Assembly: GCF_020740795.1 (NCBI RefSeq)
Contig: NC_067310.1
Location: 365,940-429,939 of the forward strand
Reading direction: 5' to 3'
Length of the DNA stretch: 64,000 bases
Source: Apus apus
Taxonomy: Eukaryota
Shown: positions 1 through 55,469 of the stretch, one piece after another
How positions within the stretch are numbered: position 1 is the stretch's first letter
How the letters are laid out: every line of letters starts with the position of its first letter
The notes under the pieces: generated by a model
Database searches by the model: none
The model's input: only the letters and a program-made list of their open reading frames with translations
Told to the model about the DNA's origin: nothing
Position numbers and translations under genes: made by a program

Positions 1-907
1 GGGGGAGGGAGAAAGCCCATGCGTTGAGTTGACCACAGGTAATAACTGAAGGATAAGAAAACCATGATCTTAATAATAAAGAACATGTGACGACAAGGAA
101 AATGGTGACAGAGAGAGAGAAACAAAACCCAAGACAGACCTGTGATGCACAGGAGCTTCCGGCTGCTGTTCAACCACGACCAGCCCCAGCCACCCCCCAG
201 CCCCCACCAGCTGCCCACAAACCCCAGGGAGGTGCAGGCAGCACAAGGGCTCATCCCATGCCCACACTCAGCAGCTGCCCCACTGCAACGCCCGGGCAGC
301 CCGGGACTCGCTCCAGCAATGGCGAGCTCCACGGACACTGCCCACTCCTGGGCTCTGCATCCTCTCCAGGGCCTCATCAGCCCTGCCCTCTTCCAGAGCA
401 TCTCGGGGATGGCACCAGGGGACAAGAGGCTGTGCCTCATGTCACGGGTGCTCCCAGCGCAGGAGGAGGGAGACGAGAGGTTGGGCATCAGGTCCAAGCT
501 TAGGTGAGACCCAACTTGCACGCAAAGCCACGCGGGGTTGAAGACAGGCTCCCAGCCACCCGTTCCCCTTCTGCCATCCCAGAGCCTGAGCAGACCTCTG
601 GAAGTCTCCCTCCTCCTGCCACCCGCTGGGGTCCCTCTTCCTCGCTGGGGTCCCTGTCCCTTCCCGGGGTCCCTTTCTGGGGTCAGGGAATGGGACTCAC
701 CGCTGTCTTTGTCACCTTCCCTGGGCTGCAACAGCTCTGTGCAGCCGGCTCCTGCCCTGCCTTTTGTCCCGTGTCAGAGGAGCCAGCCCCTCTCCTCCTA
801 TTCCCGGAAATGAGGGTGAGTCAGAGCGAAAGTGAAAGGGATAAGGATGGGAGAGGAAACGCCTCAGGCGCCTCAGCATCAGAGCACGAAAACTCGGAGC
901 AGACCAG
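1..907 (+). repeat. GBP promoter block 'a' (one of 5 copies)
   Basis: Near-identical copies at 6200-7107 (-), 24746-25673 (-) and 53474-54400 (+), plus a partial copy at 23535-23835 (-). The block runs from ~0.76 to ~1.7 kb upstream of each GBP ATG. Confidence 0.85.
801..837 (-). promoter_or_regulatory. ISRE plus GAS module of a GBP copy lying just left of the window on the minus strand
   Basis: ttcccggaa at 801-809 and gaaagtgaaa at 828-837, in the same orientation as the copy-3 promoter. Confidence 0.45.
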
Positions 908-2089
908 ACAAAGATGGTTAAATAACTGAAGGTATGAGAATGAAAAACAAGAGCTGCAAAAGCAAAGCCTCAGCAGCTCCCACCCAGCTGCCCAGCCAGT
1001 TGGAGAGTGACACCTGCCTTGGGACACATTCCCCAACCCCTTCTTTGATCCCACTTTATTATTGCCCAGCATGACATCAGCTCGTGTGGAAGGATAGTGA
1101 GATACTGGAGCAGCTTGTGCAGAGAGGCTGAGGATGGCCCAGAGAGGCTGTGGATGGCCCCGAGAAGTTGGAGATGGCCCTGTATGATTTCTGAAGGTCC
1201 TGGATCCACAGTCCCCTCTTGCAGACACTGTTCAGCTCTTGTTGCACCCATGTCCCTTGCACTGCCCTGGCACACAGACCTGCTCCTCTGCCCCCCCTTG
1301 AACCAGCCTCACCCCCATCTCCCATGAGCAGCTCGTTTGCCCATCATCCCCTCCTGGACATGGCCCTGGCCCTCTTCCCCTCATGTCCTGGAGCCCTTGG
1401 AGATCCATCCTCCCCCTGAACATCCCAATATCCCCTTGCAGAAATACCAGCTCCCCGTTCCCCTCCTGTCCCCATCCTCCCCATTTTCCCTTGCCTGTTT
1501 CTTTCCATATTGTGTGGGCACACCCCTCTGACCAGGGGGTTGTTTACTTCATCCTTGAGTCTTCCTCACAGGAACCTTTGGCCGAGTTCTGTCTCTTCTC
1601 CCATTTCTCTCGGCTGACTCTGCAGCAGAACTGGTTACAGGAGGCATCCCTAGTCTCAGCTGAACGGCTTCTTTCTTCTTCAAGGACCCTTGTATTTCTT
1701 CCCTAAAACTCCAGACCAGCTCACACAAAAGGCTTTCACACTCACTAGCAGTAGGCCCAGATGAGAGATTTACACCCTACAAGCAGTGAACTGTTTGAAG
1801 TCAGAGTTTGGGTAATGCTCTGTTTCATGCAGCTGTCCACGATCACAAGAAATGCTTCTACAGATACATGAGCAGCAAAAAGAGGACTAGGAAGAATGTC
1901 CACCCTTTTTCAGATGCAGCAGGAAACACAGTGATGAGGGGTGAGGAGAAGGCTGAGGTATCAACGGCACCTTTGCCTCAGTCTTTAGTGGTAGGACCAG
2001 TTCCTTGCTGGGTGCACAGGCCCCTGAACTGGCAGACAGGGACACAGAGCAGTTTGAAACCTCATCATCCAAGAGGGGACAGGCAGTGA

Positions 2090-2365
2090 CCTGCTGCACC
2101 ACTTGGATGTCCACAGGTCCATGGGGCCGGATGGGATCCAGCCGAGGGGTCTGAGGGAGCTGGCAGAAGTGCTCCCCAAGCTCCTTTCCATCACTTTCCA
2201 GCAGTTCTGGCTGACTAGGGAGGTGCCAGTAGACTGGAGACTGGTCAATGTGACCCCAGCTACAAGAAGAGCCATAAGGAGGATCCAGGGACTTGCAGGC
2301 CTATCGGCCTGACCTCTGTGCTGGGGAAGTTCTGGAGCAGATCATGCTGAGGGCCATCACATGGT
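2090..2365 (+). mobile_element. CR1 ORF2 fragment
   Basis: HRSMGPDGIQPRGLRELAEVLPKLLSITFQQFWLTREVPVDWRLVNVTP…; mirror copy at 22100-22375 (-). Confidence 0.65.
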
Positions 2366-2811
2366 CCCCTCTCCTTTCAGCCCTCTGCTGACCAAGGTGC
2401 GTGTTTATTTCCATAATGCATGGGCACCCCCCCATATCCCCATGCTCTCCCATCAACATGCCCCCGCCCATGGACCTTCAAAGGTCTCCTCCAGCCCACG
2501 TAATTCTGTGAGTCCATAACTGGACGTGTTCCAGGTCAGGCTGCTCCAGCAGCTTGGAGCAACCTCATCTGGTTGAAGCTGTCCTTGCCCCTGGGCAGGA
2601 GGGGCTCCATCCCGAGGACGGACGGAGCTGGTGGCAGCTCCATCACCCAGGGCAGCAGGTCAGTGGTTGCCATGACACCATAAGCAGCCAATCAGCAGTT
2701 TCCATGTCACCATGATGTCACCATGGGCTGCCCAGGGGTATCCAAGGGGCCACGGGGTGGTGTGTCTTACACTCTGGAGAAGCTGTCGCCCCTAAGAAGC
2801 AACTTGCCAGC

Positions 2812-2884
2812 ATGAGGTGGACTGAGGTGGAGTTCTGGGATGGGATGGAGCCCACTTTCATGATGCCCAGCATCACAGCTGAAG
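2812..2884 (+). CDS. CCDC81-like exon 1
   Basis: ATG at 2812, donor gtacag at 2885. Confidence 0.5.
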
Positions 2885-4843
2885 GTACAGCCCTCCAGCC
2901 GCTGCAGGAACGTTGTGGCGAACAAGGGTGGCACTGCAGCCATCTCAGGGGTGTCACTGTCTGGGCATGACACTGGGCATCTGCCACGGCAGCATGGCTC
3001 GGGAGATAGTGGAGGGCTGAGAGCTGGTGGACATGGAGGATGACCTGGTTCTCCTTTGCTTTCCAGAGCGAACAGCCATCTGGGACACGGTGGCTGGCTC
3101 CATTCAAGATCAGCTCCTGCTGCACAAGGTAGGTCAACACCTACATCCTCCTCATCCACCCAGAGGGGTGGGAAGTCCGCGTGGCCCCAGAGCATGCCCC
3201 GCAGTTCCTTTTCACGTCCTCCAAAAAGCAAGAAACTCACCCCAAAGGTCCCCACCCATGAACAAACAAGCCATGTGGTGTCACCTCTGGCAGGTGGTGT
3301 TGTGACAAAGGCTGGTCCTGTTTTCTGGGGACCTCCCAAATGCTTTTTTGGAGGAGAAAGGACTCGGCATGACCAAAGCACTCCCCACTGCCCCAGCTCA
3401 TGCCTCTGAAGAGCAGGAGTGGGCAGGATCCAACCTGAAGCACCATCCCTGGTCAGGCCCACCTCTAGATTTTCCCTCTGCACAATCTTCACCCTTTGGC
3501 TGTTCCGCTCTGCTCCAGGGGCTCCGAATTCCCAGCCTTGGCTCCTTTGACGCTGTCCCCAAACAGATCCAAGTTGGGGGTGAGGTTGTGACCATCCAGA
3601 GGCCTGTGTTTCACCTGGCCAGGAACCTCGTGGTTGTCCACAACCTACGGGACAACAAGTCCTACCTGCCTGGTAAGATGGTGAATGAAATCTCGGATGA
3701 TTGCATGGTCATTGCGTCCCATCCCTGGGTCTGAAACACCAGCAGAAGCTCCACAAGGTGAGCATCTCCATCCCTCTTGTGTGTTCTTGCAGGCAACAAG
3801 GAGCTGGAACCCCTCAAATGCTCCAAGGTGGCCACAGCCATCTCTGTGTCCCGACGGAAAGTGGAGGGCTGCATCCAAGGCACCGTGTCCCTCCTCTCTC
3901 ACTGTCTGGGGAAGGGGAAGAACGTCTCCCTCATCCTGAAGGGTGCTGGGGTGCTCCTCATAGAGGGCAGCAAGGTGCAAATGAAGTTCTACTATGACTT
4001 CCTGGACAGGATGTCTGGGAAGGAGAACTTGGAGAAAGCTGTTTCCCAGGTGAGCGTGTGGGTTTCTCCGTGGGGTGGGCAGTCCCACGGCAGTGTCCCA
4101 GCACTGCTGGCATGTGGCCCACCAGGACACGGCCACTTGGGCCAGGCGAGATCTATGGTGCTACCAACAGCTCTCACTCCTTTGACATTGAGGGCCTCAT
4201 CCCTGCTGAGGACGTCCTGCCATCTTTGTGCTCCTCCACTGCAGGTCCCCCAGCTGCTGAACATGACTGTGTCCCCGGTGGTGCCCGTGGCCTCACTGAC
4301 TTTCTCTGGCCATGTCATCATCTTTCCCGAGTGAGTATGTTGGTGGCTGGAGCCACTCTTTGTCATAGATGTCCAAGGTAGCGTTTGCTCCTCATGATGA
4401 CATGTGTCCTCCCATGGGGACACAAGGCAGCGACTCTTGTAGCTGTCCTGGGGTTGTAGTTGCTCCTGTGAGGCTGATGTGATGGGAAAGACAGAGGAAT
4501 TTAGGTGACACTTTCTTCTCCTGGTGTCCTGGAATCCTTTGTTGGGTGACTGCACTTCCTGGGATGGTCCTCAAGGTTGGGGCATGGTGGACTTGGGGAA
4601 AACCTGGTGGCCTTTTGGAGAACAATGCCAAAGCCTGCCTGTGAGAAGGAGATCCCAGTGAGCAGCAAGGGCTGGTGGTGCTCTGGGTCACGTCGGTGTC
4701 TTCCCCTTCTTTTCCAGGTTTGAAATGGAGGTTGTGTCCAAACCACCACCCAGGCCTCTTCTCAAGACCTTGGAACAAGACCCTGGTGAGGTCGAGGAGA
4801 TGAGGAGAGAGAGTTTTCCATCTCCTGGACAAGGTAGGAAAGG
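2812..4843 (+). CDS. CCDC81-like (HU-domain) gene, 5' part: at least 6 coding exons; 3' exons not identified
   Basis: Phase-consistent GT/AG exons: 2812-2884 (MRWTEVEFWDGMEPTFMMPSITAE), 3067-3128 (ERTAIWDTVAGSIQDQLLLHK), 3519-3672 (GLRIPSLGSFDAVPKQIQVGGEVVTIQRPVFHLARNLVVVHNLRDNKSYLPG), 3793-4049 (…SKVATAISVSRRKVEGCIQGTVSLLSHCLGKGKNVSLILKGAGVLLIEGSKVQMKFYYDFLDRMSGKENLEKAVSQ), 4245-4330 and 4718-4843. The IW…QL.LHKG…PGLGTF… and VEGC…KV.MKFY.DFL patterns recall the two HU domains of human CCDC81. Confidence 0.6.
3067..3128 (+). CDS. CCDC81-like exon 2
   Basis: Acceptor tttccag, donor gtaggt. Confidence 0.6.
3519..3672 (+). CDS. CCDC81-like exon 3 (HU domain 1)
   Basis: Acceptor ctgctccag, donor gtaaga. 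Confidence 0.65.
3793..4049 (+). CDS. CCDC81-like exon 4 (HU domain 2)
   Basis: Acceptor ttcttgcag, donor gtgagc. Confidence 0.65.
4245..4330 (+). CDS. CCDC81-like exon 5
   Basis: Acceptor ccactgcag, donor gtgagt. Confidence 0.55.
4718..4843 (+). CDS. CCDC81-like exon 6
   Basis: Acceptor ttttccag, donor gtagga. Confidence 0.5.
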
Positions 4844-6013
4844 TCAAAGCAGCTCCCGGCTCCTTTTGGTGACACAGGCAACCAAATTTTCCAGGGAAGT
4901 CGCCAGCCTTGTGTGTCACAACTTCTCTCCTTTCTGGTTCCAGTGGGTTTTCCTGGTTTTCCCTTTGCTCCTGGTCCAAGTCCAACTCACGAAGACTTTG
5001 GGAAAGTAACAGAGCCAAAGAAGAGGAGAATGTCTCAGGTCAGGTGAGGCTGGAGGCTTTGGGCAGTGCCTGGACGGGGTCCCTTGGCTCAGAGGTGGGT
5101 GATGCCCTATTCACAGAAACATTCAAGGTCAGGTTGGACAGGGGGCTCGGAGCAACCTGGTGTCGCGAGCCGGTATCGGGGGCTCCCGGCTGCCCCCCCA
5201 ATGTGGAGGGGTTTGTGAATGAGCCCGAGGGTCACACGTGGTGCTGCCTCTCACAGGGGAACGGCCGCTGTGGGACCGTGTTTTAGAGTGGAAGTTAGAA
5301 AGCATTAGGTAATGCAAAAAGTGCTGTGCCCTTAAAGCGTTGTGTCTGTGAGAGGGTTGTGGATCAAAGGAAAGGAAGCGTGACCCCCCTGTCCAGCCAG
5401 TGTTACTGTCCAGAGCCACTTGGCACCATGAGCCCCAAGTTAGGGCGGTAACTAGCAGGGCAATGCAGAACTTGTTGCCCATCCTTCCTGTCTTGTACCA
5501 CATCTGTTGTTTTGGTTTCATTTGTCCTTGAGCAGCAGGCCTGGTTTTGGTCCATTAGCTGGGTATAATCAGCAGATTTATGAGGGGAAGAAGAAGAACA
5601 GTGTCCCACACCTGGTCTTGTTGACGATGTCCTTGCCCATGGTCTAGCTGGACCTTCACAGTTCCTTCCAACCTCAAACACTCTGTGAGTCCATGATCAG
5701 AAGATTGCAAAGTCAGGTTGGATGGGGCTTGAAGTTACCTGGTGTGGTTGAAGATGTTTCTGCTCATTGCGGGGGCTTGGACCAGATGGACCTGCAAAGA
5801 TCCTCTCAACCCCCATGTGGCTCTCAGGGCAGGCAGGATGCAGCCTCAAGCCATCATGTCCTCAGGCAGATCTCTCCCATTGTGTCTTTGCAGGAAGCAA
5901 CTGGTGATATCGCGGGATTCCTCTGCCAAAAAGCAGCTGGTGACCAGCCAAGCCAAGGGCAAGCCTGCTTCCAAAGGCCGAGCATCGAAGCAGGTGGTGA
6001 AATCTGAGAGCTA

Positions 6014-6118
6014 CAGAGGAGGAGGAGGACGAGGAGAAGGAGGAAGAAAAGAAGGTGGAGGAGAAGGAGAGGCCAGGAGGACCAGGAGCAGGAGGGCAAG
6101 GAGGAGGGGAAGGCTGGG
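6014..6118. repeat. Purine-rich (GGA/GAG)n simple repeat
   Basis: aggaggaggaggacgaggagaaggaggaag…; unique to the upstream flank of the copy-1 promoter. Confidence 0.8.
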
Positions 6119-6269
6119 TGGAGAAAAACCTTGCTTAAACAGCAGTGCCGAAGACAACAAAGGCCCTGCCCAGCCATTCCCAGCCAGCCTTGATTTTTTT
6201 TGGTCTGCTCCGAGTTTTCGTGCTCTGATGCTGAGGCGCCTGAGGCGTTTCCTCTCCCATCCCTATCCC

Positions 6270-6306
6270 TTTCACTTTCGCTCTGACTCACCCTCATTTC
6301 CGGGAA
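6270..6306 (+). promoter_or_regulatory. ISRE plus GAS interferon-response module upstream of GBP copy 1
   Basis: TTTCACTTTC at 6270-6279 (reverse complement GAAAGTGAAAG) and palindromic TTCCGGGAA at 6298-6306. A putative non-coding exon 1 follows immediately. Confidence 0.55.
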
Positions 6307-6329
6307 TAGGAGGAGAGGGGCTGGCTCCT

Positions 6330-6406
6330 CTGACACGGGACAAAAGGCAGGGCAGGAGCCGGCTGCACAGAGCTGTTGCAGCCCAGGGAAGGTGACAAAG
6401 ACAGCG
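6330..6406 (+). other. Putative non-coding exon 1 (5' UTR) of GBP copy 1
   Basis: Strong donor acagcg|gtgagt at 6407, downstream of the ISRE/GAS pair. Intron 1 would run 6407-7846 to the acceptor of the ATG exon. The TSS is not determinable from sequence. Confidence 0.35.
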
Positions 6407-7865
6407 GTGAGTCCCATTCCCTGACCCCAGAAAGGGACCCCGGGAAGGGACAGGGACCCCAGCGAGGAAGAGGGACCCCAGCGGGTGGCAGGAGGAGGGA
6501 GACTTCCAGAGGTCTGCTCAGGCTCTGGGATGGCAGAAGGGGAACGGGTGGCTGGGAGCCTGTCTTCAACCCCGCGTGGCTTTGCGTGCAAGTTGGGTCT
6601 CACCTAAGCTTGGACCTGATGCCCAACCTCTCGTCTCCCTCCTCCTGCGCTGGGAGCACCCGTGACATGAGGCACAGCCTCTTGTCCCCTGGTGCCATCC
6701 CCGAGATGCTCTGGAAGAGGGCAGGGCTGATGAGGCCCTGGAGAGGATGCAGAGCCCAGGAGTGGGCAGTGTCCGTGGAGCTCGCCATTGCTGGAGCGAG
6801 TCCCGGGCTGCCCGGGCGTTGCAGTGGGGCAGCTGCTGAGCGTGGGCATGGGATGAGCCCTTGTGCTGCCTGCACCTCCCTGGGGTTTGTGGGCAGCTGG
6901 TGGGGGCTGGGGGGTGGCTGGGGCTGGTCGTGGTTGAACAGCAGCCGGAAGCTCCTGTGCATCACAGTTCTGTCTTGGGTTTTGTTTCTCTCTCTCTGTC
7001 ACCATTTTCCTTGTCGTCACATGTTCTTTATTATTAAGATCATGGTTTTCTTATCCTTCAGTTATTACCTGTGGTCAACTCAACGCATGGGCTTTCTCCC
7101 TCCCCCCACCACTGCGGGGCAGGGACTGTGCAGCTGGGGGGCCTCGGCTTTCAGCTGGGGTTTCAGGCAGCACGACCCCCAGCCCAGGGGCTGGCGGGGG
7201 GAGTGAGGAGCAGACAAGGGCTGGGCGCAGGGTCAGCCCTGCTGAGGGTGATGGGACCACCAACCCCAACACCGTTTCCAGCACAAATCCATGTTACATG
7301 TTACACCAGCATGGGAGCTGGGCAAGGTCAGGCAGCGGGGGATGTCCCCGTGAGAGGCACAGAGGGGGACGGGGGTTGGGTGGGGTTGGGCGGAAGAAAG
7401 GGAGGGAGAAATTCAGGAGCAGCTCCCCTGAGGTTCCGTGTCAGCCCGACCAACCCTTGGCCCGTGCTGCTGTGGCTCTCCAGTCCTTCTCCTGCCCTTC
7501 AGCCCTGCCTGAGGCCATTGCCCCATCCCACCCCCATATTTGCTCCGCAGACTTGGTGCTGGTGATGAGCAGGACGTGGGGCAGAGGTTTCCCACTGTCC
7601 CGCAGGGCCTTCAGGAGCGGAGCCATTCCTGCGGTGGGACACACGGGATGGGCCGTGCCCCTTGGCCAAGTGTCATCAGTGTCTTCACCACAGGGCTTGG
7701 GAGGGGCCAAAGGAGGAGCCGTGGAGGCAGGACCTTGGTGACAATGTGGTCTGCTTGCAAAGATGCCCTAGGAGGATCCTGCCTGTCCCTGCCTGCACTG
7801 TGGGGTGTCCTCACCACGTGAACCCCTCTGGCCCTCTCCTCTGCAGGCCGCCTTTCCCGTCAGCA

Positions 7866-8046
7866 ATGGCATCCACAGTCCACATGCCAGCGCCTGTCTG
7901 CCTCATTGAGAACAGCCCGACAAAGGGGCTGATGGTCCAGAGGGAGGCCCTGCAGCTGCTGTCCAAGGTCAGCCAGCCTGTGGTGGTGGTGGCCATCACA
8001 GGGCCGTACCGCACGGGCAAGTCCTACCTCATGAACAGGCTGGCTG
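7866..8046 (+). CDS. GBP: GBP copy 1, first coding exon (exon 2)
   Basis: Acceptor ctgcag at 7841-7846, ATG at 7866, [61 protein letters not shown], donor gtgaga at 8047. Confidence 0.85.
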
Positions 8047-11000
8047 GTGAGAGAAGAGGTGAGGGAGGTCCCTGCCCTGGACGGCCAAGGAACCTGGCTT
8101 CTCCTACTCGTCATTTGACACAGATGGGAGCCTTGTGTCCTCCCCACAGGCTTCTCCTTGGGCTCCAGCGTGCAGTCCCAGACCAAAGGTATCTGGATGT
8201 GGTGTGTACGTCACCCCCGCCGGCCTGGACACACTCTGGTGCTGCTGGACAGTGAAGGGCTGAGTGACGCAAAGAAGGTGTGTGAGAGGCAGGGTCTGCC
8301 TTTGTGGCTTCCCAGCACCTGGAGGAAGCTCTTGGGGGCCCAGCCATGGTGCCCAGAGTCAAGGCGTTCCCACTGCTCACGGTGGCCTTCAGCCGGTGTG
8401 CTGGGATGGGCCAGAGGCCACAAGGAAGGAGGTTGGGGGAGGCACGTTTCCAAATCCCTCTGCATTTCTGGAAAAGAGCAGTTGCACAGGAAGGAGGGGC
8501 TCAGGGAGCACTTGGGTAGACCCCGAGACTTCAGAGTTGAGGACAAGCCCAGCTACAGACAAGGCATGGTGATGGCATGGGGGTGCGTGTTGCCATGGCC
8601 CGTTGTGTAGGGGCATTCAGGCTCTGGGCATCTGGGGCTCTGCTCATACCTGGGGGACCTTGTTGATCAGAGCCAAGGGTTGTTGTTCCAGAGTGACACC
8701 AAGAACGACACGTGGATCTTTGTGCTGACCGTGCTGCTCTCCAGCACCATGATCTACAACAGCAAAGGCACCATTGACCAGAACGCCATGGACCAGCTGC
8801 AGTATCCTTGGTGGGACAGGAGCACCAGGGATGCCCTCCTCTCCCTGCGTGGTGGGCTAGGGCTTGGCAAATGCCAGTTCCTCAGAGGGCTGCAGAACCT
8901 TCTGCTCGTGCCCAGGGATGTGCTTGGAGACCTTAGGAGCCCCATGCTGTGGGCCTGAGGGCCGAGGGGTTTTCTCCCTCCTCCTTCTGGTGGGTCCAGG
9001 CTGTTCGGCGTCCCCGCCGAGTCTCCCCTCCTCCCTGTGACGTGCTGAGGGTTGCAGGATGGCAATGCCCCTGCATTCAGAGCTGAGGTCCCTGTTTCCT
9101 TAGCCAGCTCCCCAGCTACGTGACAAAGCTGACTGAGCGCATCAAGTTGAAAGCAGCACCCAAGAAGAGTGAAGATGAGCTGGAGGATTCCGACAAATTT
9201 GTCGGCTTCTTCCCGACTTTTGTCTGGGCTGTCCGGGATTTCACACTGCAGCTGCAGGTGGATGGGGAGGAAATCTCTGAGGATGGATACTTGGAGGACA
9301 TTCTGAAGCTCAAGGCTGGTAAGGGGGTGGTGCTGTGCTGCTGGAGACATCCAGCCCCAGACTCAGCAGCCACATTTCAGGATAATTCAACAGCATTCCA
9401 AGCCTGTGAACCTGCTCCGTGTCCTCCTACCCCCCAGGCAGCAGCCCCGAGACCCAGCTCTACAACCATCCCCGGGAATGCATCCGCCAGTTCTTTCCGG
9501 AACGCAAGTGCTTTGTTTTTGACCAACCAGCTGGGAGGAGGAAACTGCCCCTCTTGGAGGAACTTCCGGATGATGAGCTGGATCCTGATTTCCAGCAGCA
9601 GGTAGAGAAGTTCTGCAGCTACATCTGGGAGAAGTCTCCGCCTAAGACCGTCCCAGGTGGCCACATCGTAACTGGGAACCGTGAGTACTGCTGCCCAAGG
9701 GGTGGGTGGCCAGCGGCTCTTGGGACTGTGTCTGGGGGAGGATCAAGTGCCAAGGGTGCGGGTGGGGAAAGGGAGAGATGTTTTCCTGCCTGCTGTCCCT
9801 GCCCCGGGGTTTGGAGCTTTGGGACGTTGCAGGTGTGGTGGGAAAGAGTTAGGAAAAGCAGTTCAGGAGGCCTGGGGCAGGGAGGCAGCGTGGGTACAGC
9901 AGGAGACAGGGCTGGGTGGGTGCCTGCGTTTGTCGGGGCTGCAGATCTCTCGCCCTGGGTCCTCCTTGGCAGTGCTGGGGAAACTGGCAGAGACCTACCT
10001 GGAGGTCATCCGGAGCGGGGCAGTGCCATGCCTGGAGAGCGCGGTGTTTGTCCTGGCCAAGGCTGAGAACGCGGCGGCGGTGGAGGAGGCTGTGAGGTTG
10101 TACCAGGAGCTGATGGAGCAGCGGGCGAAGCTGCCAACGGAGACTCTTGAGCAGCTGCTGGAGCTGCATGCCCAGTGTGAGCGGGAGGCCCTGGAGCTGT
10201 TCATGGCACGGGCATTCAAGGAGGACATCGAGCACGCCCAGATCGAGCTCGCGGTAGGTGGTGCCCAGCCCAGCCAGAATTCCCCCAGGGACACCGTCAT
10301 CCCCTTGGCTTTGGGAACATGGCATGGTCCTGGGCAGGGGGCTCTCCCTGCCTCCTGCCAGAGGACACGGCCATGCCCTCTCCAGAGGAGGCTCGGCCCC
10401 AGCGCCTGCCCTGGCTGTCTGGCAGCCGTCCCTGCTGTGCCCCCTCTTCTCCCAGGGTCAGCAGCTGTGCTGCCAGGGGACGGAGCTCAGCCCTGGCCCC
10501 TCTCCTGCGGCAGCCCCGCTGCAGCTCTGCCCCGCCTGGAAGCTGCAGCCTTCCATGCTCCCCCTGTCCTGCCTGCTAATGCTGTCCCTGGGTGCTGTGA
10601 AGCCTGTGGTCCCTGGCCTGTCCCCTGCTCCTGGGCACCTTTGGCCAGAGATGTCCGTGGGCGTGCAATGCCCTCCCCATCTGTCCCCTCCCAGCTGTTC
10701 ACCCCACGGACGGGAGATCCCAATTCCCACATCCTCCTGGCTCGATGTGTGCCCTGCCTGAGCGCGGTGGGTGCAGCTCAGCCAGGGCTGATGTCTTCCC
10801 TCTGCCCCTGCACGCACAGCGCCGGGTCGAGGCCATCAAGGTGAAGTTCTCCATGGACAACGAGCAGGCATCCCAGGACAAGTGTGAGGCTGCTCTCACG
10901 GACCTCTCCCAAGCCCTGGACAAACGAGTCCGTGATGGTGTCTACAGCGTGTCAGGGGGTTACGAGCAGTTCAGAGGAGACCAGCAGGCAGTGGTGGAGA

Positions 11001-11929
11001 AGTACAGGGATCTGCCTGGCAAGGGAGTGAAGGTAGGACCAAGAGCAGCTCTCCTTCAAGAGCAAAAGGCTCAATGTCCCATCCCCTTCCCCAAGACGCC
11101 GTTCTCCCCAGCTGCTGCTTCCCCTCTTGACTCCTCTTCTCCCTGGGCTCCTACAGGCTGATGCTGTCCTGCTGCAGTTCCTCCAAAGGACACAGACTCT
11201 GGCCCAACACATCCGCAACACAGACCGCTCCCTGACAGAGAAGGACAAGGAGATGAAAAGTAACTTCTGGGCTGGAGAAATGACGCTGCCTGTAGAGGGC
11301 CAAGCACAATGGAGAGGGACAGCAGTACTCCTCGGGGGCTTGCGGGCTCAGCTCCTGCCCTGGCAACACCTCTGTTTCTCTGTCACCAGGTGCACAAGAG
11401 CAGAATGAGAGAGCTGAGCAGGAGAGGGAAGTCCAGAGGAAGAAGGAGGCTGAAGAGAAGCAGAAGTTGCAGGACCAGCTACGCAAAACCAACGAGCATG
11501 AGCGTCAGCTGAGAAAGAAGCTGGAGGATTCCTACAAGAAGCAGCTGGAGGAGCAGGAGAAGATAATCAGACATAAATTAGAGGTACCGGTGGGGGGGGA
11601 GGGAGGGAATGTGCAGGTGCCAAGGGGTGGCCAGCAGGCAGGAATGGCACAGGGGTCCCAGCAGGGTCCCTCTTGTTGCTTCTTTGCTCTGTGCCCCTCT
11701 CACGGCACACACCGTGCCCTTGGTGACAACCTGCCTGTCTTCCCAGGAGGAGATGGCATTGAGACAAGAGGGCTTCTCTGACAGAGCTGACCACATGAGC
11801 CAGGTGACCCGTAGGCTGGAGGAGGAAAAAGGCAGCATCTGGAATACTTTATTGTCTGTGGTTGAAACATTTGTACCCCTTGTGAAAGTCGTGAGAATGG
11901 GCATATCTGCCCTTTCAAAACTCTTTTGA
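7866..11929 (+). CDS. GBP: Guanylate-binding protein (GBP1-like interferon-inducible dynamin-family GTPase), paralog copy 1; 10 coding exons, 612 aa, apparently intact
   Basis: The spliced translation aligns with human GBP1 from memory over its whole length ([16 protein letters not shown]..., P-loop [27 protein letters not shown], long C-terminal coiled coil). All 9 introns have GT/AG, exon phases are consistent and the total is 1839 nt. Exons: 7866-8046, 8150-8277, 8692-8801, 9116-9318, 9438-9680, 9973-10253, 10820-11032, 11157-11259, 11390-11583, 11747-11929. Confidence 0.9.
8150..8277 (+). CDS. GBP: GBP copy 1 exon 3
   Basis: Acceptor ccccacag then (G)[42 protein letters not shown], donor gtgtgt at 8278. 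Confidence 0.85.
8692..8801 (+). CDS. GBP: GBP copy 1 exon 4
   Basis: Acceptor ttgttccag then [36 protein letters not shown], donor gtatcc at 8802. Confidence 0.8.
9116..9318 (+). CDS. GBP: GBP copy 1 exon 5
   Basis: (H)[68 protein letters not shown], donor gtaagg at 9319. The acceptor is ambiguous: ag at 9114-9115 is preferred because it keeps the human-like length, and the alternative is ag at 9102-9103. Confidence 0.7.
9438..9680 (+). CDS. GBP: GBP copy 1 exon 6
   Basis: Acceptor cccccag then [81 protein letters not shown], donor gtgagt at 9681. Confidence 0.85.
9973..10253 (+). CDS. GBP: GBP copy 1 exon 7
   Basis: Acceptor cttggcag then [93 protein letters not shown], donor gtaggt at 10254. 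Confidence 0.85.
10820..11032 (+). CDS. GBP: GBP copy 1 exon 8
   Basis: Acceptor cacgcacag then [71 protein letters not shown], donor gtagga at 11033. Confidence 0.85.
11157..11259 (+). CDS. GBP: GBP copy 1 exon 9
   Basis: Acceptor ctcctacag then [34 protein letters not shown], donor gtaact at 11260. Confidence 0.8.
11390..11583 (+). CDS. GBP: GBP copy 1 exon 10 (coiled-coil)
   Basis: Acceptor tgtcaccag then [65 protein letters not shown], donor gtaccg at 11584. Confidence 0.85.
11747..11929 (+). CDS. GBP: GBP copy 1 terminal coding exon
   Basis: Acceptor cttcccag then [60 protein letters not shown] and a stop codon ending at 11929. There is no CaaX box. Confidence 0.8.
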   Translation, partial: EEMALRQEGFSDRADHMSQVTRRLEEEKGSIWNTLLSVVETFVPLVKVVRMGISALSKLF

Positions 11930-12699
11930 AGATTTCCTTATGGCCCCAGGGGTTAACACAGTAAGAGAGCTGTTTGGTGTCCCTGCCTGCCATCCTGTGA
12001 CATTTCAAAAGCCCTTCCTGCAAGGTGCTTGCCAGAGAGTATGCAACTAACCTCCACCTGCACTTGGACCACACTCTCTAGTGCTTTCACGCAGGGCTTA
12101 TCCAGAGGAAGATGTTGTCCTCTTCCGTGCCAGAGCACTTGGTGTCTCCCTTGCCCTGAAGGCGTGGGGCACATCTCAAGCCAGGCTGGCCTGGGGCACA
12201 GAAAGGCCATGATGCCAGCAGGCCGGGCTGGGAGTGTTTTGCCAATATGCCAAAGGGGATCCCACTCACCTTTTCTGGAGACCTCCTTACCAGGGCTGCC
12301 TGAAACCCCCAGGCGAGCTTTGAGCTCATGTCCTCGGCTCACACTTCCCGCAGCAGCGTGAAGGAGGTGGAGGTGGTGAGCAAACCAGGGGTCCACGTGC
12401 TGAGCACTGTCTTCCCAGGTCACCTTCACGCCTGATGGAGCCTGCCTGTCCTGGAGGTGGCTGCACACCCGCCTGCCGATGGGAAGTGGGGAATTCAGCC
12501 CTTGTTCTGTTTTCTTTGCACACGCAGCTGTTGCTTTGCCTACTAAACTGCCCTTCCCTCAACCCCTGAGTTGCCTCCTTTCTTTTGCCCTGCCCATTCT
12601 CTCCTCCACCCCACCAGTGGTGTGGGGCTCAGCTGTCGAATGGGGGTCACCCATAGAGAACGGGGCTTCCCTCCTGCCCCCGGGGAATCAGACCTTCAG

Positions 12700-21652: not shown

Positions 21653-23624
21653 GCTGGCAAGTTGCTTCTCAGGGGAGACAGCTTCTCCAGAGTGTAAGAC
21701 ACACCACCCCGTGGCCCCTTGGATACCCCTGGGCAGCCCATGGTGACATCATGGTGACATGGAAACTGCTGATTGGCTGCTTATGGTGTCATGGCAACCA
21801 CTGACCTGCTGCCCTGGGTGATGGAGCTGCCACCAGCTCCGTCCGTCCTCGGGATGGAGCCCCTCCTGCCCAGGGGCAAGGACAGCTTCAACCAGATGAG
21901 GTTGCTCCAAGCTGCTGGAGCAGCCTGACCTGGAACACGTCCAGTTATGGACTCACAGAATTACGTGGGCTGGAGGAGACCTTTGAAGGTCCATGGGCGG
22001 GGGCATGTTGATGGGAGAGCATGGGGATATGGGGGGGTGCCCATGCATTATGGAAATAAACACGCACCTTGGTCAGCAGAGGGCTGAAAGGAGAGGGGAC
22101 CATGTGATGGCCCTCAGCATGATCTGCTCCAGAACTTCCCCAGCACAGAGGTCAGGCCGATAGGCCTGCAAGTCCCTGGATCCTCCTTATGGCTCTTCTT
22201 GTAGCTGGGGTCACATTGACCAGTCTCCAGTCTACTGGCACCTCCCTAGTCAGCCAGAACTGCTGGAAAGTGATGGAAAGGAGCTTGGGGAGCACTTCTG
22301 CCAGCTCTCTCAGACCCCTCGGCTGGATCCCATCCGGCCCCATGGACCTGTGGACATCCAAGTGGTGCAGCAGGTCACTGCCTGTCCCCTCTTGGATGAT
22401 GAGGTTTCAAACTGCTCTGTGTCCCTGTCTGCCAGTTCAGGGGCCTGTGCACCCAGCAAGGAACTGGTCCTACCACTAAAGACTGAGGCAAAGGTGCCGT
22501 TGATACCTCAGCCTTCTCCTCACCCCTCATCACTGTGTTTCCTGCTGCATCTGAAAAAGGGTGGACATTCTTCCTAGTCCTCTTTTTGCTGCTCATGTAT
22601 CTGTAGAAGCATTTCTTGTGATCGTGGACAGCTGCATGAAACAGAGCATTACCCAAACTCTGACTTCAAACAGTTCACTGCTTGTAGGGTGTAAATCTCT
22701 CATCTGGGCCTACTGCTAGTGAGTGTGAAAGCCTTTTGTGTGAGCTGGTCTGGAGTTTTAGGGAAGAAATACAAGGGTCCTTGAAGAAGAAAGAAGCCGT
22801 TCAGCTGAGACTAGGGATGCCTCCTGTAACCAGTTCTGCTGCAGAGTCAGCCGAGAGAAATGGGAGAAGAGACAGAACTCGGCCAAAGGTTCCTGTGAGG
22901 AAGACTCAAGGATGAAGTAAACAACCCCCTGGTCAGAGGGGTGTGCCCACACAATATGGAAAGAAACAGGCAAGGGAAAATGGGGAGGATGGGGACAGGA
23001 GGGGAACGGGGAGCTGGTATTTCTGCAAGGGGATATTGGGATGTTCAGGGGGAGGATGGATCTCCAAGGGCTCCAGGACATGAGGGGAAGAGGGCCAGGG
23101 CCATGTCCAGGAGGGGATGATGGGCAAACGAGCTGCTCATGGGAGATGGGGGTGAGGCTGGTTCAAGGGGGGGCAGAGGAGCAGGTCTGTGTGCCAGGGC
23201 AGTGCAAGGGACATGGGTGCAACAAGAGCTGAACAGTGTCTGCAAGAGGGGACTGTGGATCCAGGACCTTCAGAAATCATACAGGGCCATCTCCAACTTC
23301 TCGGGGCCATCGACAGCCTCTCTGGGCCATCCTCAGCCTCTCTGCACAAGCTGCTTCAGTATCTCACCACCCTTCCACACGAGCTGATGTCATGCTGGGC
23401 AATAATAAAGTGGGATCAAAGAAGGGGTTGGGGAATGTGTCCCAAGGCAGGTGTCACTCTCCAACTGGCTGGGCAGCTGGGTGGGAGCTGCTGAGGCTTT
23501 GCTTTTGCAGCTCTTGTTTTTCATTCTCATACCTTCAGTTATTTAACCATCTTTGTCTGGTCTGCTCCGAGTTTTCGTGCTCTGATGCTGAGGCGCCTGA
23601 GGCGTTTCCTCTCCCATCCTTATC

Positions 23625-23663
23625 CCTTTCACTTTCGCTCTGACTCACCCTCATTTCCGGGAA
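23625..23663 (+). promoter_or_regulatory. Orphan duplicate ISRE plus GAS module, 1.2 kb upstream of the copy-2 module
   Basis: cctttcactttcgctc…ttccgggaa inside a partial tandem duplicate of the promoter block, followed by a CR1 fragment rather than a gene. Confidence 0.45.
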
Positions 23664-23839
23664 TAGGAGGAGAGGGGCTGGCTCCTCTGACACGGGACAA
23701 AAGGCAGGGCAGGAGCCGGCTGCACAGAGCTGTTGCAGCCCAGGGAAGGTGACAAAGACAGCGGTGAGTCCCATTCCCTGACCCCAGAAAGGGACCCCGG
23801 GAAGGGACCCCGGGAAGGGACAGGGACCCCAGCGAGGAA

Positions 23840-24140: not shown

Positions 24141-24835
24141 CCGAATTCTCCTTCCATGCATTATGGAAAGAAACAGGCAAGGGAAAATGGGGAGGATGGG
24201 GACAGGAGGGGAACAGGGAGCTGGTATTTCTGCAAGGGGATATTGGGATGTCCAGGGGGAAGGATGGATCCCCAAGGGCTCCAGGACATGAGGGGAAGAG
24301 GGCCGGGGCCATGTCCAGGAGGGGATGATGGGCAAACGAGCTGCTCATGGGAGATGGGGGTGAGGCTGGTTCAGCGGGGGGGCAGAGGAGCAGGTCTGTG
24401 TGCCAGGACAGTGCAAGGGACATGGGTGCAACAAGAGCTGAACAGTGTCTGCAAGAGGGGACTGTGGATCCAGGACCTTCAGAAATCATACAGGGCCATC
24501 TCCAACTTCTCGGGGCCATCGACAGCCTCTCTGGGCCATCCTCAGCCTCTCTGCACAAGCTGCTTCAGTATCTCACCACCCTTCCACACGAGCTGATGTC
24601 ATGCTGGGCAATAATAAAGTGGGATCAAAGAAGGGGTTGGGGAATGTGTCCCAAGGCAGGTGTCACTCTCCAACTGGCTGGGCAGCTGGGTGGGAGCTGC
24701 TGAGGCTTTGCTTTTGCAGCTCTTGTTTTTCATTCTCATACCTTCAGTTATTTAACCATCTTTGTCTGGTCTGCTCCGAGTTTTCGTGCTCTGATGCTGA
24801 GGCGCCTGAGGCGTTTCCTCTCCCATCCTTATCCC

Positions 24836-24872
24836 TTTCACTTTCGCTCTGACTCACCCTCATTTCCGGGAA
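24836..24872 (+). promoter_or_regulatory. ISRE plus GAS module upstream of GBP copy 2
   Basis: Identical module at an offset of +18566. Confidence 0.55.
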
Positions 24873-24895
24873 TAGGAGGAGAGGGGCTGGCTCCT

Positions 24896-24972
24896 CTGAC
24901 ACGGGACAAAAGGCAGGGCAGGAGCCGGCTGCACAGAGCTGTTGCAGCCCAGGGAAGGTGACAAAGACAGCG
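24896..24972 (+). other. Putative non-coding exon 1 of GBP copy 2
   Basis: Same as copy 1 at an offset of +18566. Confidence 0.35.
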
Positions 24973-54173: not shown

Positions 54174-54250
54174 CGCTGTCTTTGTCACCTTCCCTGGGCT
54201 GCAACAGCTCTGTGCAGCCGGCTCCTGCCCTGCCTTTTGTCCCGTGTCAG
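54174..54250 (-). other. Putative non-coding exon 1 of GBP copy 3
   Basis: Mirror of 24896-24972; donor complement actcac|cgctg. Confidence 0.35.
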
Positions 54251-54273
54251 AGGAGCCAGCCCCTCTCCTCCTA

Positions 54274-54310
54274 TTCCCGGAAATGAGGGTGAGTCAGAGC
54301 GAAAGTGAAA
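54274..54310 (-). promoter_or_regulatory. ISRE plus GAS module upstream of GBP copy 3
   Basis: ttcccggaa at 54274-54282 and gaaagtgaaa at 54301-54310. Confidence 0.55.
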
Positions 54311-55469
54311 GGGATAAGGATGGGAGAGGAAACGCCTCAGGCGCCTCAGCATCAGAGCACGAAAACTCGGAGCAGACCAGACAAAGATGGTTAAATAACT
54401 GAAGGTATGAGAATGAAAAACAAGAGCTGCAAAAGCAAAGCCTCAGCAGCTCCCACCCAGCTGCCCAGCCAGTTGGAGAGTGACACCTGCCTTGGGACAC
54501 ATTCCCCAACCCCTTCTTTGATCCCACTTTATTATTGCCCAGCATGACATCAGCTCGTGTGGAAGGATAGTGAGATACTGGAGCAGCTTGTGCAGAGAGG
54601 CTGAGGATGGCCCAGAGAGGCTGTGGATGGCCCCGAGAAGTTGGAGATGGCCCTGTATGATTTCTGAAGGTCCTGGATCCACAGTCCCCTCTTGCAGACA
54701 CTGTTCAGCTCTTGTTGCACCCATGTCCCTTGCACTGCCCTGGCACACAGACCTGCTCCTCTGCCCCCCCGCTGAACCAGCCTCACCCCCATCTCCCATG
54801 AGCAGCTCGTTTGCCCATCATCCCCTCCTGGACATGGCCCCGGCCCTCTTCCCCTCATGTCCTGGAGCCCTTGGAGATCCATCCTCCCCCTGAACATCCC
54901 AATATCCCCTTGCAGAAATACCAGCTCCCCGTTCCCCTCCTGTCCCCATCCTCCCCATTTTCCCTTGCCTGTTTCTTTCCATATTGTGTGGGCACACCCC
55001 TCTGACCAGGGGGTTGTTTACTTCATCCTTGAGTCTTCCTCACAGGAACCTTTGGCCGAGTTCTGTCTCTTCTCCCATTTCTCTCGGCTGACTCTGCAGC
55101 AGAACTGGTTACAGGAGGCATCCCTAGTCTCAGCTGAACGGCTTCTTTCTTCTTCAAGGACCCTTGTATTTCTTCCCTAAAACTCCAGACCAGCTCACAC
55201 AAAAGGCTTTCACACTCACTAGCAGTAGGCCCAGATGAGAGATTTACACCCTACAAGCAGTGAACTGTTTGAAGTCAGAGTTTGGGTAATGCTCTGTTTC
55301 ATGCAGCTGTCCACGATCACAAGAAATGCTTCTACAGATACATGAGCAGCAAAAAGAGGACTAGGAAGAATGTCCACCCTTTTTCAGATGCAGCAGGAAA
55401 CACAGTGATGAGGGGTGAGGAGAAGGCTGTCCCCATCCTCCCCATTTTCCCTTGCCTGTTTCTTTCCAT

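What the first reader, a model, noticed from the sequence alone, without database searches (positions are those of the whole stretch)
6270..6406. Canonical ISRE + GAS interferon-response module conserved upstream of every GBP copy, followed by a probable non-coding exon 1
GAAAGTGAAAG (an IRF/ISGF3 ISRE) lies 18 bp from palindromic TTCCCGGAA (a STAT1 GAS). A strong gtgagt donor follows ~100 bp downstream and pairs with the acceptor of the ATG exon 1.44 kb away. This matches the known organisation of mammalian GBP1 promoters, which have adjacent ISRE and GAS elements and a 5'-UTR exon. The module is identical in all 5 copies, and homology between copies ends ~90 bp upstream of it.
Basis: partly seen in the sequence, partly recalled or inferred. 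Interest (0 to 1): 0.55.

Follow-up and report, generated by a model that had tools for sequence, protein, structure and literature searches.

The report
Interferon-responsive promoter of swift GBP genes
This is the ordinary interferon-responsive promoter and short non-coding first exon of recently duplicated guanylate-binding-protein (GBP) genes in the common swift, a known kind of element that matters mainly as a correct annotation, not as a discovery.

Summary
CTTTCACTTTC (GAAAGTGAAAG on the other strand) lies at 6269-6279, 18 bp from TTCCGGGAA at 6298-6306. A GTGAGT donor follows at 6407 and a CAG acceptor precedes exon 2 at 7847 (ATG 7866). The 38-bp module is exact in five places.

The window is Apus apus. 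Genes D and E, spliced by my model, equal NCBI 'GBP1-like [Apus apus]' at 616/616 residues.

Identity between the copies proves nothing, because they lie in ~99%-identical segmental duplications. Other species give the real support. ISRE, GAS and the donor GTGAGTCCC are kept at the matching position in potoo, condor, goshawk and ruddy duck. The ISRE is also kept in a turtle. Pairwise identity among birds is 94.5% for the ISRE, 80% for the GAS and 100% for the donor, against 53-59% for the flanks. A duck-like GBP mRNA aligns spliced onto the ruddy duck genome. Its first exon starts 13 nt after the GAS, joins the ATG exon, and is homologous to swift 6334-6406.

Corrections:
- Only three complete GBP genes are present.
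- One module points off the window.
- One module is an orphan tandem copy.
- A 3' GBP fragment has no module.
- Homology ends just upstream of the module only for copy B.

Verdict: a new member of a known kind, of low interest. Interferon induction itself is inferred.

The parts
6269..6279 (-). ISRE / IRF-E core. It reads GAAAGTGAAAG on the - strand and CTTTCACTTTC on the gene's sense strand. This is copy B.
   Evidence: It is the only kind of GAAANNGAAA in the window. CTTTC-NN-TTTC is invariant in 5 birds plus a turtle, with 94.5% pairwise identity among birds.
6284..6290 (+). TGACTCA, an AP-1/TRE-like heptamer in the ISRE-GAS spacer. With the proximal GAAA it reads TGAGTCA-N4-GAAA on the - strand.
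   Evidence: Kept in Nyctibius and Gymnogyps, TGACTCG in Accipiter and Chrysemys, absent in Oxyura. AICE1 consensus taken from PMC13635746. Function is untested.
6298..6306 (+). GAS (TTCCGGGAA, matching TTCNNNGAA), a predicted STAT1 homodimer site.
   Evidence: Homologous sites are TTCTCGGAA (Nyctibius), TTCCCAGAA (Accipiter, Oxyura) and TTTCCGGAA (Gymnogyps, one base shorter). The site is lost in the Chrysemys copy. Pairwise identity among birds is 80%.
6340..6347 (+). Conserved A-rich, TATA-like block ACAAAAGG (GATAAAAGG in condor, GATATAAGG in duck). Its role is uncertain because it lies inside the duck mRNA contig.
6320..6406 (+). Non-coding exon 1 of GBP gene B. The 3' end at 6406 is firm. 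The 5' end is approximate: homology to the mRNA runs from 6334, and the duck mRNA 5' end corresponds to about 6320.
   Evidence: Duck-like mRNA 5'UTR nt 13-84 aligns to 6334-6406 (E 3.5e-7), and in this window only to the exon-1 copies. Spliced alignment of that mRNA on the Oxyura genome. Donor GTGAGTCCC is 100% conserved in 5 birds.
6407..7846 (+). Intron 1 (1,440 bp, GT..AG).
   Evidence: The acceptor tctcctctgcag| plus a 19-nt leader before the ATG is conserved in the hummingbird, potoo, condor and goshawk loci. The Oxyura duck has the same cag acceptor and leader length with a diverged tract. Contains a kB-like palindrome GGGATGTCCC at 7339.
7847..8058 (+). Exon 2 of gene B, with the ATG at 7866. 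It encodes the N-terminus and P-loop of the GBP GTPase.
   Evidence: Choosing the donor at 8058/8059 is supported by the exact match of the D/E model to NCBI protein P0074.
7866..11929 (+). GBP gene B coding region: 10 coding exons, 616 aa.
   Evidence: Pfam GBP 1.7e-106 and GBP_C 2.1e-89. 97% identical to Apus apus GBP1-like P0074.
701..838 (-). Copy A: the module (801-838) and exon 1 (773-701), pointing leftwards. Its ATG exon would lie off the window.
23552..23808 (+). Copy C: an orphan tandem copy of the promoter, exon 1 (23691-23763), the donor and 44 bp of intron. It lies 1.2 kb upstream of D's module. Its breakpoint is in a short tandem repeat.
24835..24972 (+). Copy D: the module (24835-24872) and exon 1 (24900-24972) of GBP gene D (CDS 26432-30491).
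   Evidence: The D protein matches P0074 at 616/616.
54174..54311 (-). Copy E: the module (54311-54274) and exon 1 (54246-54174) of GBP gene E (CDS 52714-48654).
   Evidence: The E protein matches P0074 at 616/616.

Best explanation
The segment 6269-6406 is the proximal promoter and non-coding first exon of a guanylate-binding-protein gene of the common swift, Apus apus. Recent segmental duplication has produced five copies of it.

Proposed mechanism:
1. Interferon-gamma activates STAT1 homodimers, which bind the GAS TTCCGGGAA (6298-6306).
2. IRF1, itself induced by STAT1, binds the IRF-E/ISRE GAAAGTGAAAG (6269-6279). After type I interferon, an ISGF3-like complex binds the same element.
3. 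Together they drive RNA polymerase II initiation within a few tens of bases downstream, between about 6320 and 6375.
4. The transcript starts with an untranslated exon of roughly 35-90 nt that ends at 6406.
5. That exon is spliced (GTGAGT...CAG, 1,440-bp intron) to exon 2 at 7847, and translation begins at 7866.

Shown here:
- The motifs and splice signals are present.
- The downstream gene is a GBP.
- ISRE, GAS and the donor are conserved across birds.
- The homologous exon is transcribed and spliced to the ATG exon in a duck.

Inferred:
- Factor binding and interferon inducibility.
- The exact start site.
- Use of the junction in the swift.
- Activity of each individual copy.
For: - The gene is a GBP (Pfam GBP and GBP_C). 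The species is Apus apus (D/E match P0074 at 616/616).
- Motifs, spacing and splice signals are at the stated coordinates.
- No other GAAANNGAAA occurs in the 64 kb.
- Homologous ISRE+GAS+exon 1 lie upstream of GBP genes in Nyctibius (L004 5607/5637), Accipiter (L006 8568/8597), Gymnogyps (L005 8671) and Oxyura (L008 5779/5812). The ISRE is kept in Chrysemys (L007 7121).
- Footprint among 5 birds: ISRE 94.5%, GAS 80%, donor 100% pairwise identity, against 53-59% in flanks and spacer.
- mRNA contig L001 aligns spliced on Oxyura. Nt 1-78 match 5834-5911 at 98.7%, then exon 2 from about 6328. The genomic donor is GAAG|GTGAGTCCC, and the mRNA 5' end lies 13 nt after the GAS.
- The same 5'UTR matches the swift window only at the five exon-1 copies (E 3.5e-7) and the three ATG exons.
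- The exon-2 acceptor and 19-nt leader are conserved across the bird genomes compared.
- Human GBP1 has ISRE then GAS on the same strand (PMC3532225). Both elements are functionally required there (review PMC7025589).
Against: - No swift transcript, CAGE or interferon-treatment data could be consulted. Inducibility and the swift junction rest on homology.
- The transcription start is unresolved. The conserved TATA-like block (6340-6347) lies inside the duck mRNA contig, so either it is not a TATA box or the contig includes upstream-initiated reads.
- The ISRE ends in GAAAGG rather than the ISGF3-preferred GAAACT, so it looks more like an IRF1-type IRF-E.
- IRF9 has not been identified in chickens (PMC5281639), so an ISGF3 role in birds is uncertain.
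- The GAS is one base shorter in Gymnogyps and lost in the turtle copy examined.
- A second duck mRNA (L002) starts from an alternative exon inside intron 1, so exon 1 need not be the only start.
- The 99%-identical copies could in part be assembly artefacts.
Confidence: 0.85

Rival explanations
1. The motif pair is a chance or neutral feature that looks conserved only because it was copied five times with the surrounding DNA. The real promoter lies elsewhere.
For: The copies are embedded in duplications that are 98.8-99.8% identical. Within-window identity therefore carries no information. Shuffled sequence gives about 1 ISRE-like and 0.35 GAS-like hits per 64 kb.
Against: The same two motifs, in the same order and strand, lie directly upstream of the homologous exon 1 in four other bird orders. 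The ISRE is also kept in a turtle. Motifs are 80-95% conserved against 53-59% for the flanks. In the duck the mRNA starts 13 nt after the GAS.
Confidence: 0.04
2. Transcription in the swift mainly starts inside intron 1 or just upstream of the ATG exon, from an alternative first exon like the duck's exon 1b. The 6320-6406 exon would then be minor or unused.
For: Duck mRNA contig L002 begins with a different 30-nt leader that maps to Oxyura 6180-6209 inside intron 1, with donor GTACAG. It encodes the same protein as L001.
Against: A strong polypyrimidine-CAG acceptor precedes the ATG exon in the swift and in the other birds compared, which marks it as an internal exon. The swift sequence that I judged by eye to be homologous to exon 1b (about 7700-7722, read) has CC where the duck has the GT donor. 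No ISRE core exists anywhere in intron 1.
Confidence: 0.08
3. The module is a transposable-element-derived interferon enhancer, for example an ERV LTR carrying STAT/IRF sites, that spread to the GBP copies.
For: The window is rich in ERV and CR1 fragments. LTR-borne STAT1/IRF1 sites are known to regulate immune genes in mammals (my own knowledge).
Against: The module occurs only at GBP 5' ends in the window. It is orthologously placed, together with exon 1, in birds that diverged tens of millions of years ago and in a turtle. No ERV- or CR1-like ORF or repeat boundary adjoins it.
Confidence: 0.02
4. The promoter works chiefly as an AP-1-IRF composite element (TGAGTCA-N4-GAAA) bound by BATF/JUN with IRF4 or IRF8. 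This would give cell-type-restricted expression, with classical STAT1/IRF1 interferon induction secondary.
For: On the - strand, 6276-6290 reads TGAGTCAGAGCGAAA, an exact match to the AICE1 consensus TGAnTCA-n4-GAAA (PMC13635746). TGACTCA or TGACTCG is kept in Neoaves and the turtle.
Against: The spacing is 6 rather than 4 in potoo, condor and goshawk. The heptamer is absent in the duck. The spacer as a whole is no better conserved than the flanks (55.6%). A heptamer match has modest information (10 TGASTCA in the window).
Confidence: 0.1

Closest known systems
Human GBP1 promoter (ISRE overlapping or adjacent to the GAS; Lew et al. 1991, cited in PMC2387175; review PMC7025589)
   Same: The ISRE lies 5' of the GAS, both just upstream of the start site. 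The ISRE has its TTTC strand on the sense strand (human CTTTCAGTTTC-ATA-TTACTCTAA, PMC3532225; swift CTTTCACTTTC-N18-TTCCGGGAA). The gene product is a GBP-family GTPase. From my own knowledge, human GBP1 also has a non-coding first exon with the ATG in exon 2.
   Different: The spacer is 18 bp in the swift (19-22 bp in most other birds compared) against 3 bp in human. The swift GAS is the palindromic TTCCGGGAA type, while the human one is TTACTCTAA. No c-Rel/NF-kB site was seen near the swift module; the only kB-like site is in intron 1. The swift spacer carries TGACTCA. None of the swift elements has been tested functionally.
Mouse Gbp2 and chicken GBP interferon-inducible promoters (Briken et al. 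1995; Schwemmle et al. 1996, J Biol Chem 271:10304, cited in PMC2387175)
   Same: These are interferon-inducible GBP genes with IRF1-dependent induction through an ISRE/IRF-E. That description comes from my own recollection, because the papers are not held in the library. Chicken GBP-like genes are listed as interferon-stimulated genes in PMC4974698.
   Different: I could not read the chicken promoter sequence or fetch a galliform locus. The nearest galloanseran comparison is therefore the Oxyura duck (L008).
IRF1 promoter GAS (GATTTCCCCGAAAT) and generic ISRE/IRF-E elements of interferon-stimulated genes
   Same: TTCNNNGAA palindromic half-sites for STAT1 dimers, and GAAANNGAAA tandem IRF half-sites.
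   Different: These are single elements in other genes. The combination next to a non-coding exon 1 of a GBP gene is what defines the present case.

Membership tests
GBP (guanylate-binding protein, dynamin-superfamily GTPase) gene | An N-terminal GBP GTPase domain followed by the C-terminal helical GBP_C domain. | tested here: met
   Pfam PF02263 at 1.7e-106 (residues 21-281) and PF02841 at 2.1e-89 (residues 285-576). 97-100% identical to NCBI Apus apus GBP1-like.
Interferon-responsive ISRE+GAS promoter (GBP1 type) | An ISRE/IRF-E consensus GAAANNGAAA(C/G). | tested here: met
   GAAAGTGAAAG at 6269-6279. Invariant core in 5 birds plus a turtle. The 3' flank is GG rather than the CT of ISGF3-optimal sites.
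Interferon-responsive ISRE+GAS promoter (GBP1 type) | A GAS consensus TTCNNNGAA next to the ISRE. | tested here: met
   TTCCGGGAA at 6298-6306, 18 bp from the ISRE. A canonical GAS is at the homologous place in Nyctibius, Accipiter and Oxyura, and a one-base-shorter variant in Gymnogyps.
Interferon-responsive ISRE+GAS promoter (GBP1 type) | The elements lie within about 200 bp upstream of the transcription start site. | tested here: inconclusive
   No swift transcript data. In the duck the mRNA contig starts 13 nt after the GAS. By homology the swift start would lie between about 6320 and 6375. A contig end is not a mapped start site.
Interferon-responsive ISRE+GAS promoter (GBP1 type) | Transcription is induced by interferon and depends on the two elements. 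STAT1 and IRF1/ISGF3 bind them. | not testable with these tools
   This needs interferon-treated cells, reporters, EMSA or ChIP. It is inferred from the human GBP1 literature (PMC7025589).
Non-coding 5'UTR first exon | Consensus donor and acceptor flanking an intron, with no ATG-initiated conserved coding sequence in the exon. | tested here: met
   G|GTGAGT at 6406/6407 and a pyrimidine tract-CAG|G at 7846/7847. The donor is 100% conserved in 5 birds. The acceptor is conserved. By my own reading there is no ATG in 6320-6406.
Non-coding 5'UTR first exon | Transcript evidence that the exon is joined to the ATG exon. | tested here: inconclusive
   Met in a related species only. Anseriform mRNA L001 splices the homologous exon to exon 2 on the Oxyura genome and matches swift 6334-6406 plus 7859-7899.
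AP-1-IRF composite element (AICE1) | TGAnTCA separated by exactly 4 nt from GAAA. | tested here: inconclusive
   Met in the swift (TGAGTCA-GAGC-GAAA on the - strand). Spacing is also 4 in the turtle, but with CGAGTCA. Spacing is 6 in three other Neoaves, and the heptamer is absent in the duck. I do not file the element as an AICE.

The most novel reading that the evidence does not exclude
The sauropsid GBP promoter could be a tripartite IRF / AP-1 / STAT element rather than the bipartite ISRE+GAS of mammals. A TGACTCA heptamer sits between the ISRE and the GAS. In the swift it forms an exact AICE1 (TGAGTCA-N4-GAAA) with the proximal IRF half-site. It is kept or nearly kept in Neoaves and a turtle. 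It could add AP-1/BATF-IRF4/8 input, that is, inflammatory or myeloid/lymphoid-specific control, to interferon control. This might matter in birds, where IRF9 has not been identified in chickens and the make-up of ISGF3 is unclear.
Probability: 0.12. Interest if true: 0.4.

Novelty: new member of a known kind. Interest (0 to 1): 0.15.

Why it matters
The finding gives a correct 5' end for the swift GBP genes: promoter, untranslated exon 1 and a 1.44-kb intron 1. It also shows that the ISRE-GAS-exon 1 architecture of GBP genes is shared by birds of five orders, and in part by a turtle, with the same element order as in humans. That helps with annotation, with designing avian interferon reporters, and with studying how a recently amplified immune gene cluster carries its regulation along when it duplicates. 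Examples here include an orphan tandem promoter copy and a promoter (copy B) cut off about 70 bp upstream of the ISRE. It does not change what is known about interferon-regulated transcription.

Tried and rejected
- A 61-aa exon-2 query returned only exon-sized fragments at 81% identity or less. The full spliced protein was needed to identify the species.
- Look-ups of P0074 (Apus), P0096 (Heliangelus), P0184 (turkey), P0189 (guineafowl) and P0193 (alligator) found no record. No galliform, second hummingbird or crocodilian promoter could therefore be compared.
- The Phaethornis locus L003 has only 1,017 bp upstream of the ATG. It shows no homology to the swift promoter, so it does not reach the promoter and is uninformative.
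- Lew et al. 1991 and Schwemmle et al. 1996 are not held. Statements about them are marked as cited through other papers or as my recollection.
- My first gene model used the donor at 8046/8047 and a wrong end for exon 4. It was corrected to 8058 and 8801, and validated by the exact match to P0074.
- My first reading of the mRNA alignment placed 'GACTGCG' in exon 1. The duck genome shows that ACTGCG belongs to exon 2 and that exon 1 ends at GGTGAAG.
- A transposable-element origin and a pure-chance explanation were considered and rejected on the cross-species evidence.
- An Rfam scan of the whole window found nothing.
- No NF-kB consensus lies near the module.

Full report
**What is in the sequence.** On the + strand, 6269-6279 reads CTTTCACTTTC, the reverse complement of GAAAGTGAAAG. 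One hundred bases further on, the sequence GACAGCG|GTGAGT places a donor after 6406. The tract ctctcctctgcag|G ends an intron at 7846. Exon 2 then carries a 19-nt leader and an ATG at 7866 that opens a GBP reading frame. The gene runs on the + strand, so the ISRE lies with its TTTC strand on the sense strand.

**The gene and the species.**
- I assembled ten coding exons for the gene downstream of 6269: 7866-8058, 8150-8277, 8692-8801, 9116-9318, 9438-9680, 9973-10253, 10820-11032, 11157-11259, 11390-11583 and 11747-11929.
- The 616-aa product matches Pfam GBP (1.7e-106) and GBP_C (2.1e-89).
- Its best database relative is NCBI 'guanylate-binding protein 1-like [Apus apus]' at 97%.
- Applying the same exon model to the two other complete genes in the window (26432-30491 + and 52714-48654 -) gives proteins identical to that NCBI protein at 616 of 616 residues.
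- The window is therefore common swift DNA, and the exon model agrees with the public annotation.

**The five copies.** The 38-bp module is exact at 801-838(-), 6269-6306(+), 23626-23663(+), 24835-24872(+) and 54274-54311(-). Shuffles expect none. Even the relaxed core GAAANNGAAA occurs nowhere else in the 64 kb.

These are not five independent events. A self-comparison shows a mosaic of direct and inverted duplications that are 98.8-99.8% identical. They span 257 bp for B against the short copy C and 0.9-10.9 kb for the other pairs, for example 24162-35061 against 54983-44084 at 99.83%. The region 6201-6451 is identical in all five copies except for one C/T difference, which is no better than the surrounding kilobases. 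Identity among the copies is therefore uninformative.

The copies map as follows:
- Three modules serve complete genes (B, D and E).
- Copy A points leftwards, and its ATG exon would fall off the window.
- Copy C is a 257-bp orphan (promoter, exon 1, donor and 44 bp of intron). It lies 1.2 kb upstream of D's own module and has no ATG exon of its own.
- A GBP 3' fragment (exons 8-11, 43930-42876 -) has no module.

Copies A, C, D and E continue identical to one another for 0.67 to 5 kb.

**Independent evidence from other species.** I fetched GBP loci with upstream sequence from five other species.

| Species (locus) | ISRE | GAS |
|---|---|---|
| Nyctibius grandis (L004) | CTTTCACTTTC at 5607 | TTCTCGGAA at 5637 |
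| Gymnogyps californianus (L005) | CTTTCACTTTC at 8671 | TTTCCGGAA, one base shorter than canonical |
| Accipiter gentilis (L006) | CTTTCGCTTTC at 8568 | TTCCCAGAA at 8597 |
| Oxyura jamaicensis (L008) | CTTTCGCTTTC at 5779 | TTCCCAGAA at 5812 |
| Chrysemys picta, turtle (L007) | CTTTCGGTTTC at 7121 | lost (TTCCTGGCT) |

- In every bird the pair is followed by a segment alignable to swift 6307-6406 and by the same donor GTGAGTCCC.
- In the turtle the ISRE is followed by TCTGACTCG, the degenerate GAS, a GGCAAAAGG block and a donor.
- Pairwise identity among the five birds is 94.5% over the ISRE, 80% over the GAS and 100% over the donor. It is 53% just upstream, 56% in the spacer and 59% just downstream.
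- This is the footprint expected of functional elements, and it does not depend on the swift duplications.

**Transcript evidence for exon 1.**
- A full-length GBP protein known only from Logan RNA-seq assemblies (P0176) is 86% identical to the Oxyura GBP, so it comes from an anseriform.
- Its mRNA contig L001 aligns on the Oxyura genome in spliced fashion. Nt 1-78 match 5834-5911 at 98.7%. Nt 74-291 match 6324-6541, which contains the ATG at 6347, and the following exons continue in order.
- The genome reads ...GAGAAGGTGAAG|GTGAGTCCC at the donor and ...cccctgcag|ACTGTG at the acceptor. The mRNA reads GGTGAAG|ACTGCG.
- The contig's 5' end lies 13 nt downstream of the duck GAS.
- Searched against the swift window, this 5'UTR finds exactly the five predicted exon-1 copies (6334-6406 and its counterparts, E 3.5e-7) and then the three ATG exons.
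- The pyrimidine tract-CAG acceptor and 19-nt leader before the ATG are conserved in the other bird genomes compared.

The homologous exon is therefore transcribed and joined to the ATG exon in a duck. In the swift the same signals are in place, separated by 1,440 bp.

**What remains uncertain.**
- The start site is not mapped. A conserved A-rich block (swift ACAAAAGG 6340-6347, condor ATAAAAGG, duck ATATAAGG) looks like a TATA element, but it lies inside the duck mRNA contig. Initiation is therefore either at about 6320 (TATA-less) or at about 6372, with some upstream reads in the contig.
- A second duck contig (L002, same protein) starts from a 30-nt exon inside intron 1 (Oxyura 6180-6209, donor GTACAG). 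Alternative starts therefore exist in ducks. The swift stretch I judged by eye to be homologous (about 7700-7722) has CC where the duck has GT.
- No swift RNA could be retrieved.
- Interferon induction and factor binding are inferred from human GBP1. There both elements respond to interferon, and the ISRE is strictly required for induction (review PMC7025589).
- The swift ISRE ends in GAAAGG rather than GAAACT, so it resembles an IRF1-type IRF-E.
- IRF9 has not been identified in chickens (PMC5281639). IRF1 and STAT1 input is therefore the safer prediction for birds.

**Comparison with the known.** The human GBP1 oligonucleotide TACTTTCAGTTTCATATTACTCTAAAT (PMC3532225) has the ISRE on the same strand, followed by the GAS after 3 bp. 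In the swift the order and strand are the same. The spacer, however, is 18 bp (19-22 bp in most other birds compared), and the GAS is the palindromic TTCCGGGAA type. No NF-kB site lies near the module. The only kB-like sequence, GGGATGTCCC, is in intron 1. The element belongs to the known class of ISRE+GAS promoters of GBP genes. It is a newly described member, not a new kind.

**The least ordinary reading.** The spacer contains TGACTCA (6284-6290). With the proximal IRF half-site, the - strand reads TGAGTCA-GAGC-GAAA. This matches the AP-1-IRF composite element consensus TGAnTCA-n4-GAAA (PMC13635746). The heptamer is kept in potoo and condor, is TGACTCG in goshawk and turtle, and is absent in the duck. 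Its spacing from GAAA is 6 in the three other Neoaves. The spacer overall is no better conserved than the flanks. I give a functional tripartite element a probability of about 0.12.

**Verdict.** The element is an ordinary interferon-type GBP promoter with an untranslated first exon. Interest is low (0.15).

Noticed in passing
window 1-64000; for example 24162-35061 against 54983-44084 (inverted, 99.83%), 656-5840 against 23808-18623 (inverted, 99.77%) and 6195-12791 against 24761-31348 (direct, 99.06%): The GBP cluster is a mosaic of very recent direct and inverted segmental duplications. There are three complete genes, and a fourth promoter points off the window. This is either a real recent amplification or gene conversion, or partly an assembly duplication.
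   Followed up: partly
window 23552-23808: This is an orphan tandem copy of the promoter, exon 1 and donor, 1.2 kb upstream of gene D's own promoter. Its downstream breakpoint lies inside a 13/19-bp tandem repeat, the counterpart of 6423-6483. It could act as a second promoter for gene D, with an identical first exon.
   Followed up: partly
window 42876-43930 (-): A truncated GBP copy holds only exons 8-11. Exons 8-10 are 94-100% identical at protein level, and the last exon is diverged (52%). No 5' exons and no promoter module are present, so it is probably a pseudogene fragment.
   Followed up: partly
window 11595-12194 against 30150-30750; also exon 5 at 9116-9318: Genes B and D differ at 62 positions in 6.6 kb. 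Thirty-nine of these are packed into 600 bp covering the last exon and the start of the 3'UTR, so the C-terminal tail is only about 80% identical. Exon 5 differs at four amino-acid positions (E/D, D/H, K/T, G/S). I infer that its few nucleotide differences are nonsynonymous, but I did not inspect them individually. This mosaic suggests gene conversion from another paralogue or selection on the tail. Neither protein ends in a CaaX box.
   Followed up: partly
window 6284-6290 (and the other four copies): A TGACTCA AP-1-like heptamer lies between the ISRE and the GAS. It forms TGAGTCA-N4-GAAA (the AICE1 consensus) with the proximal IRF half-site. It is partly conserved in other birds and a turtle, with variable spacing.
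   Followed up: partly
window 7339-7348, 25905-25914 and 53232-53241: A palindromic NF-kB-like site, GGGATGTCCC, lies in intron 1 of each complete gene, about 930 bp downstream of exon 1.
   Followed up: no
window 5840-6200, including the (GAG)n array at 6016-6107: The sequence directly upstream of copy B's homology break is unique to B. It contains a purine-rich GAG microsatellite. B's promoter therefore keeps only about 70 bp of the ancestral upstream region.
   Followed up: no
window about 14650-17500, 36300-39300, 55800-58200 and 61200-63900: These regions hold ORF fragments of CR1-type LINE reverse transcriptase and of endogenous retrovirus pol (RT, RNase H, integrase). Some of them lie inside the duplicated blocks.
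   Followed up: no
L008 (Oxyura jamaicensis) 6180-6209: A second duck GBP mRNA contig (L002) starts with an alternative 30-nt first exon located inside intron 1, with donor GTACAG. It encodes the same protein as L001.
   Followed up: partly
L007 (Chrysemys picta) 5965-6014: A second ISRE (GAAACCGAAAG) and GAS (TTCCGGGAA) pair lies 1.1 kb upstream of the turtle GBP promoter. It is on the opposite strand, and its GAS lies upstream of its ISRE. It may be a divergent or rearranged paralogous promoter.
   Followed up: no
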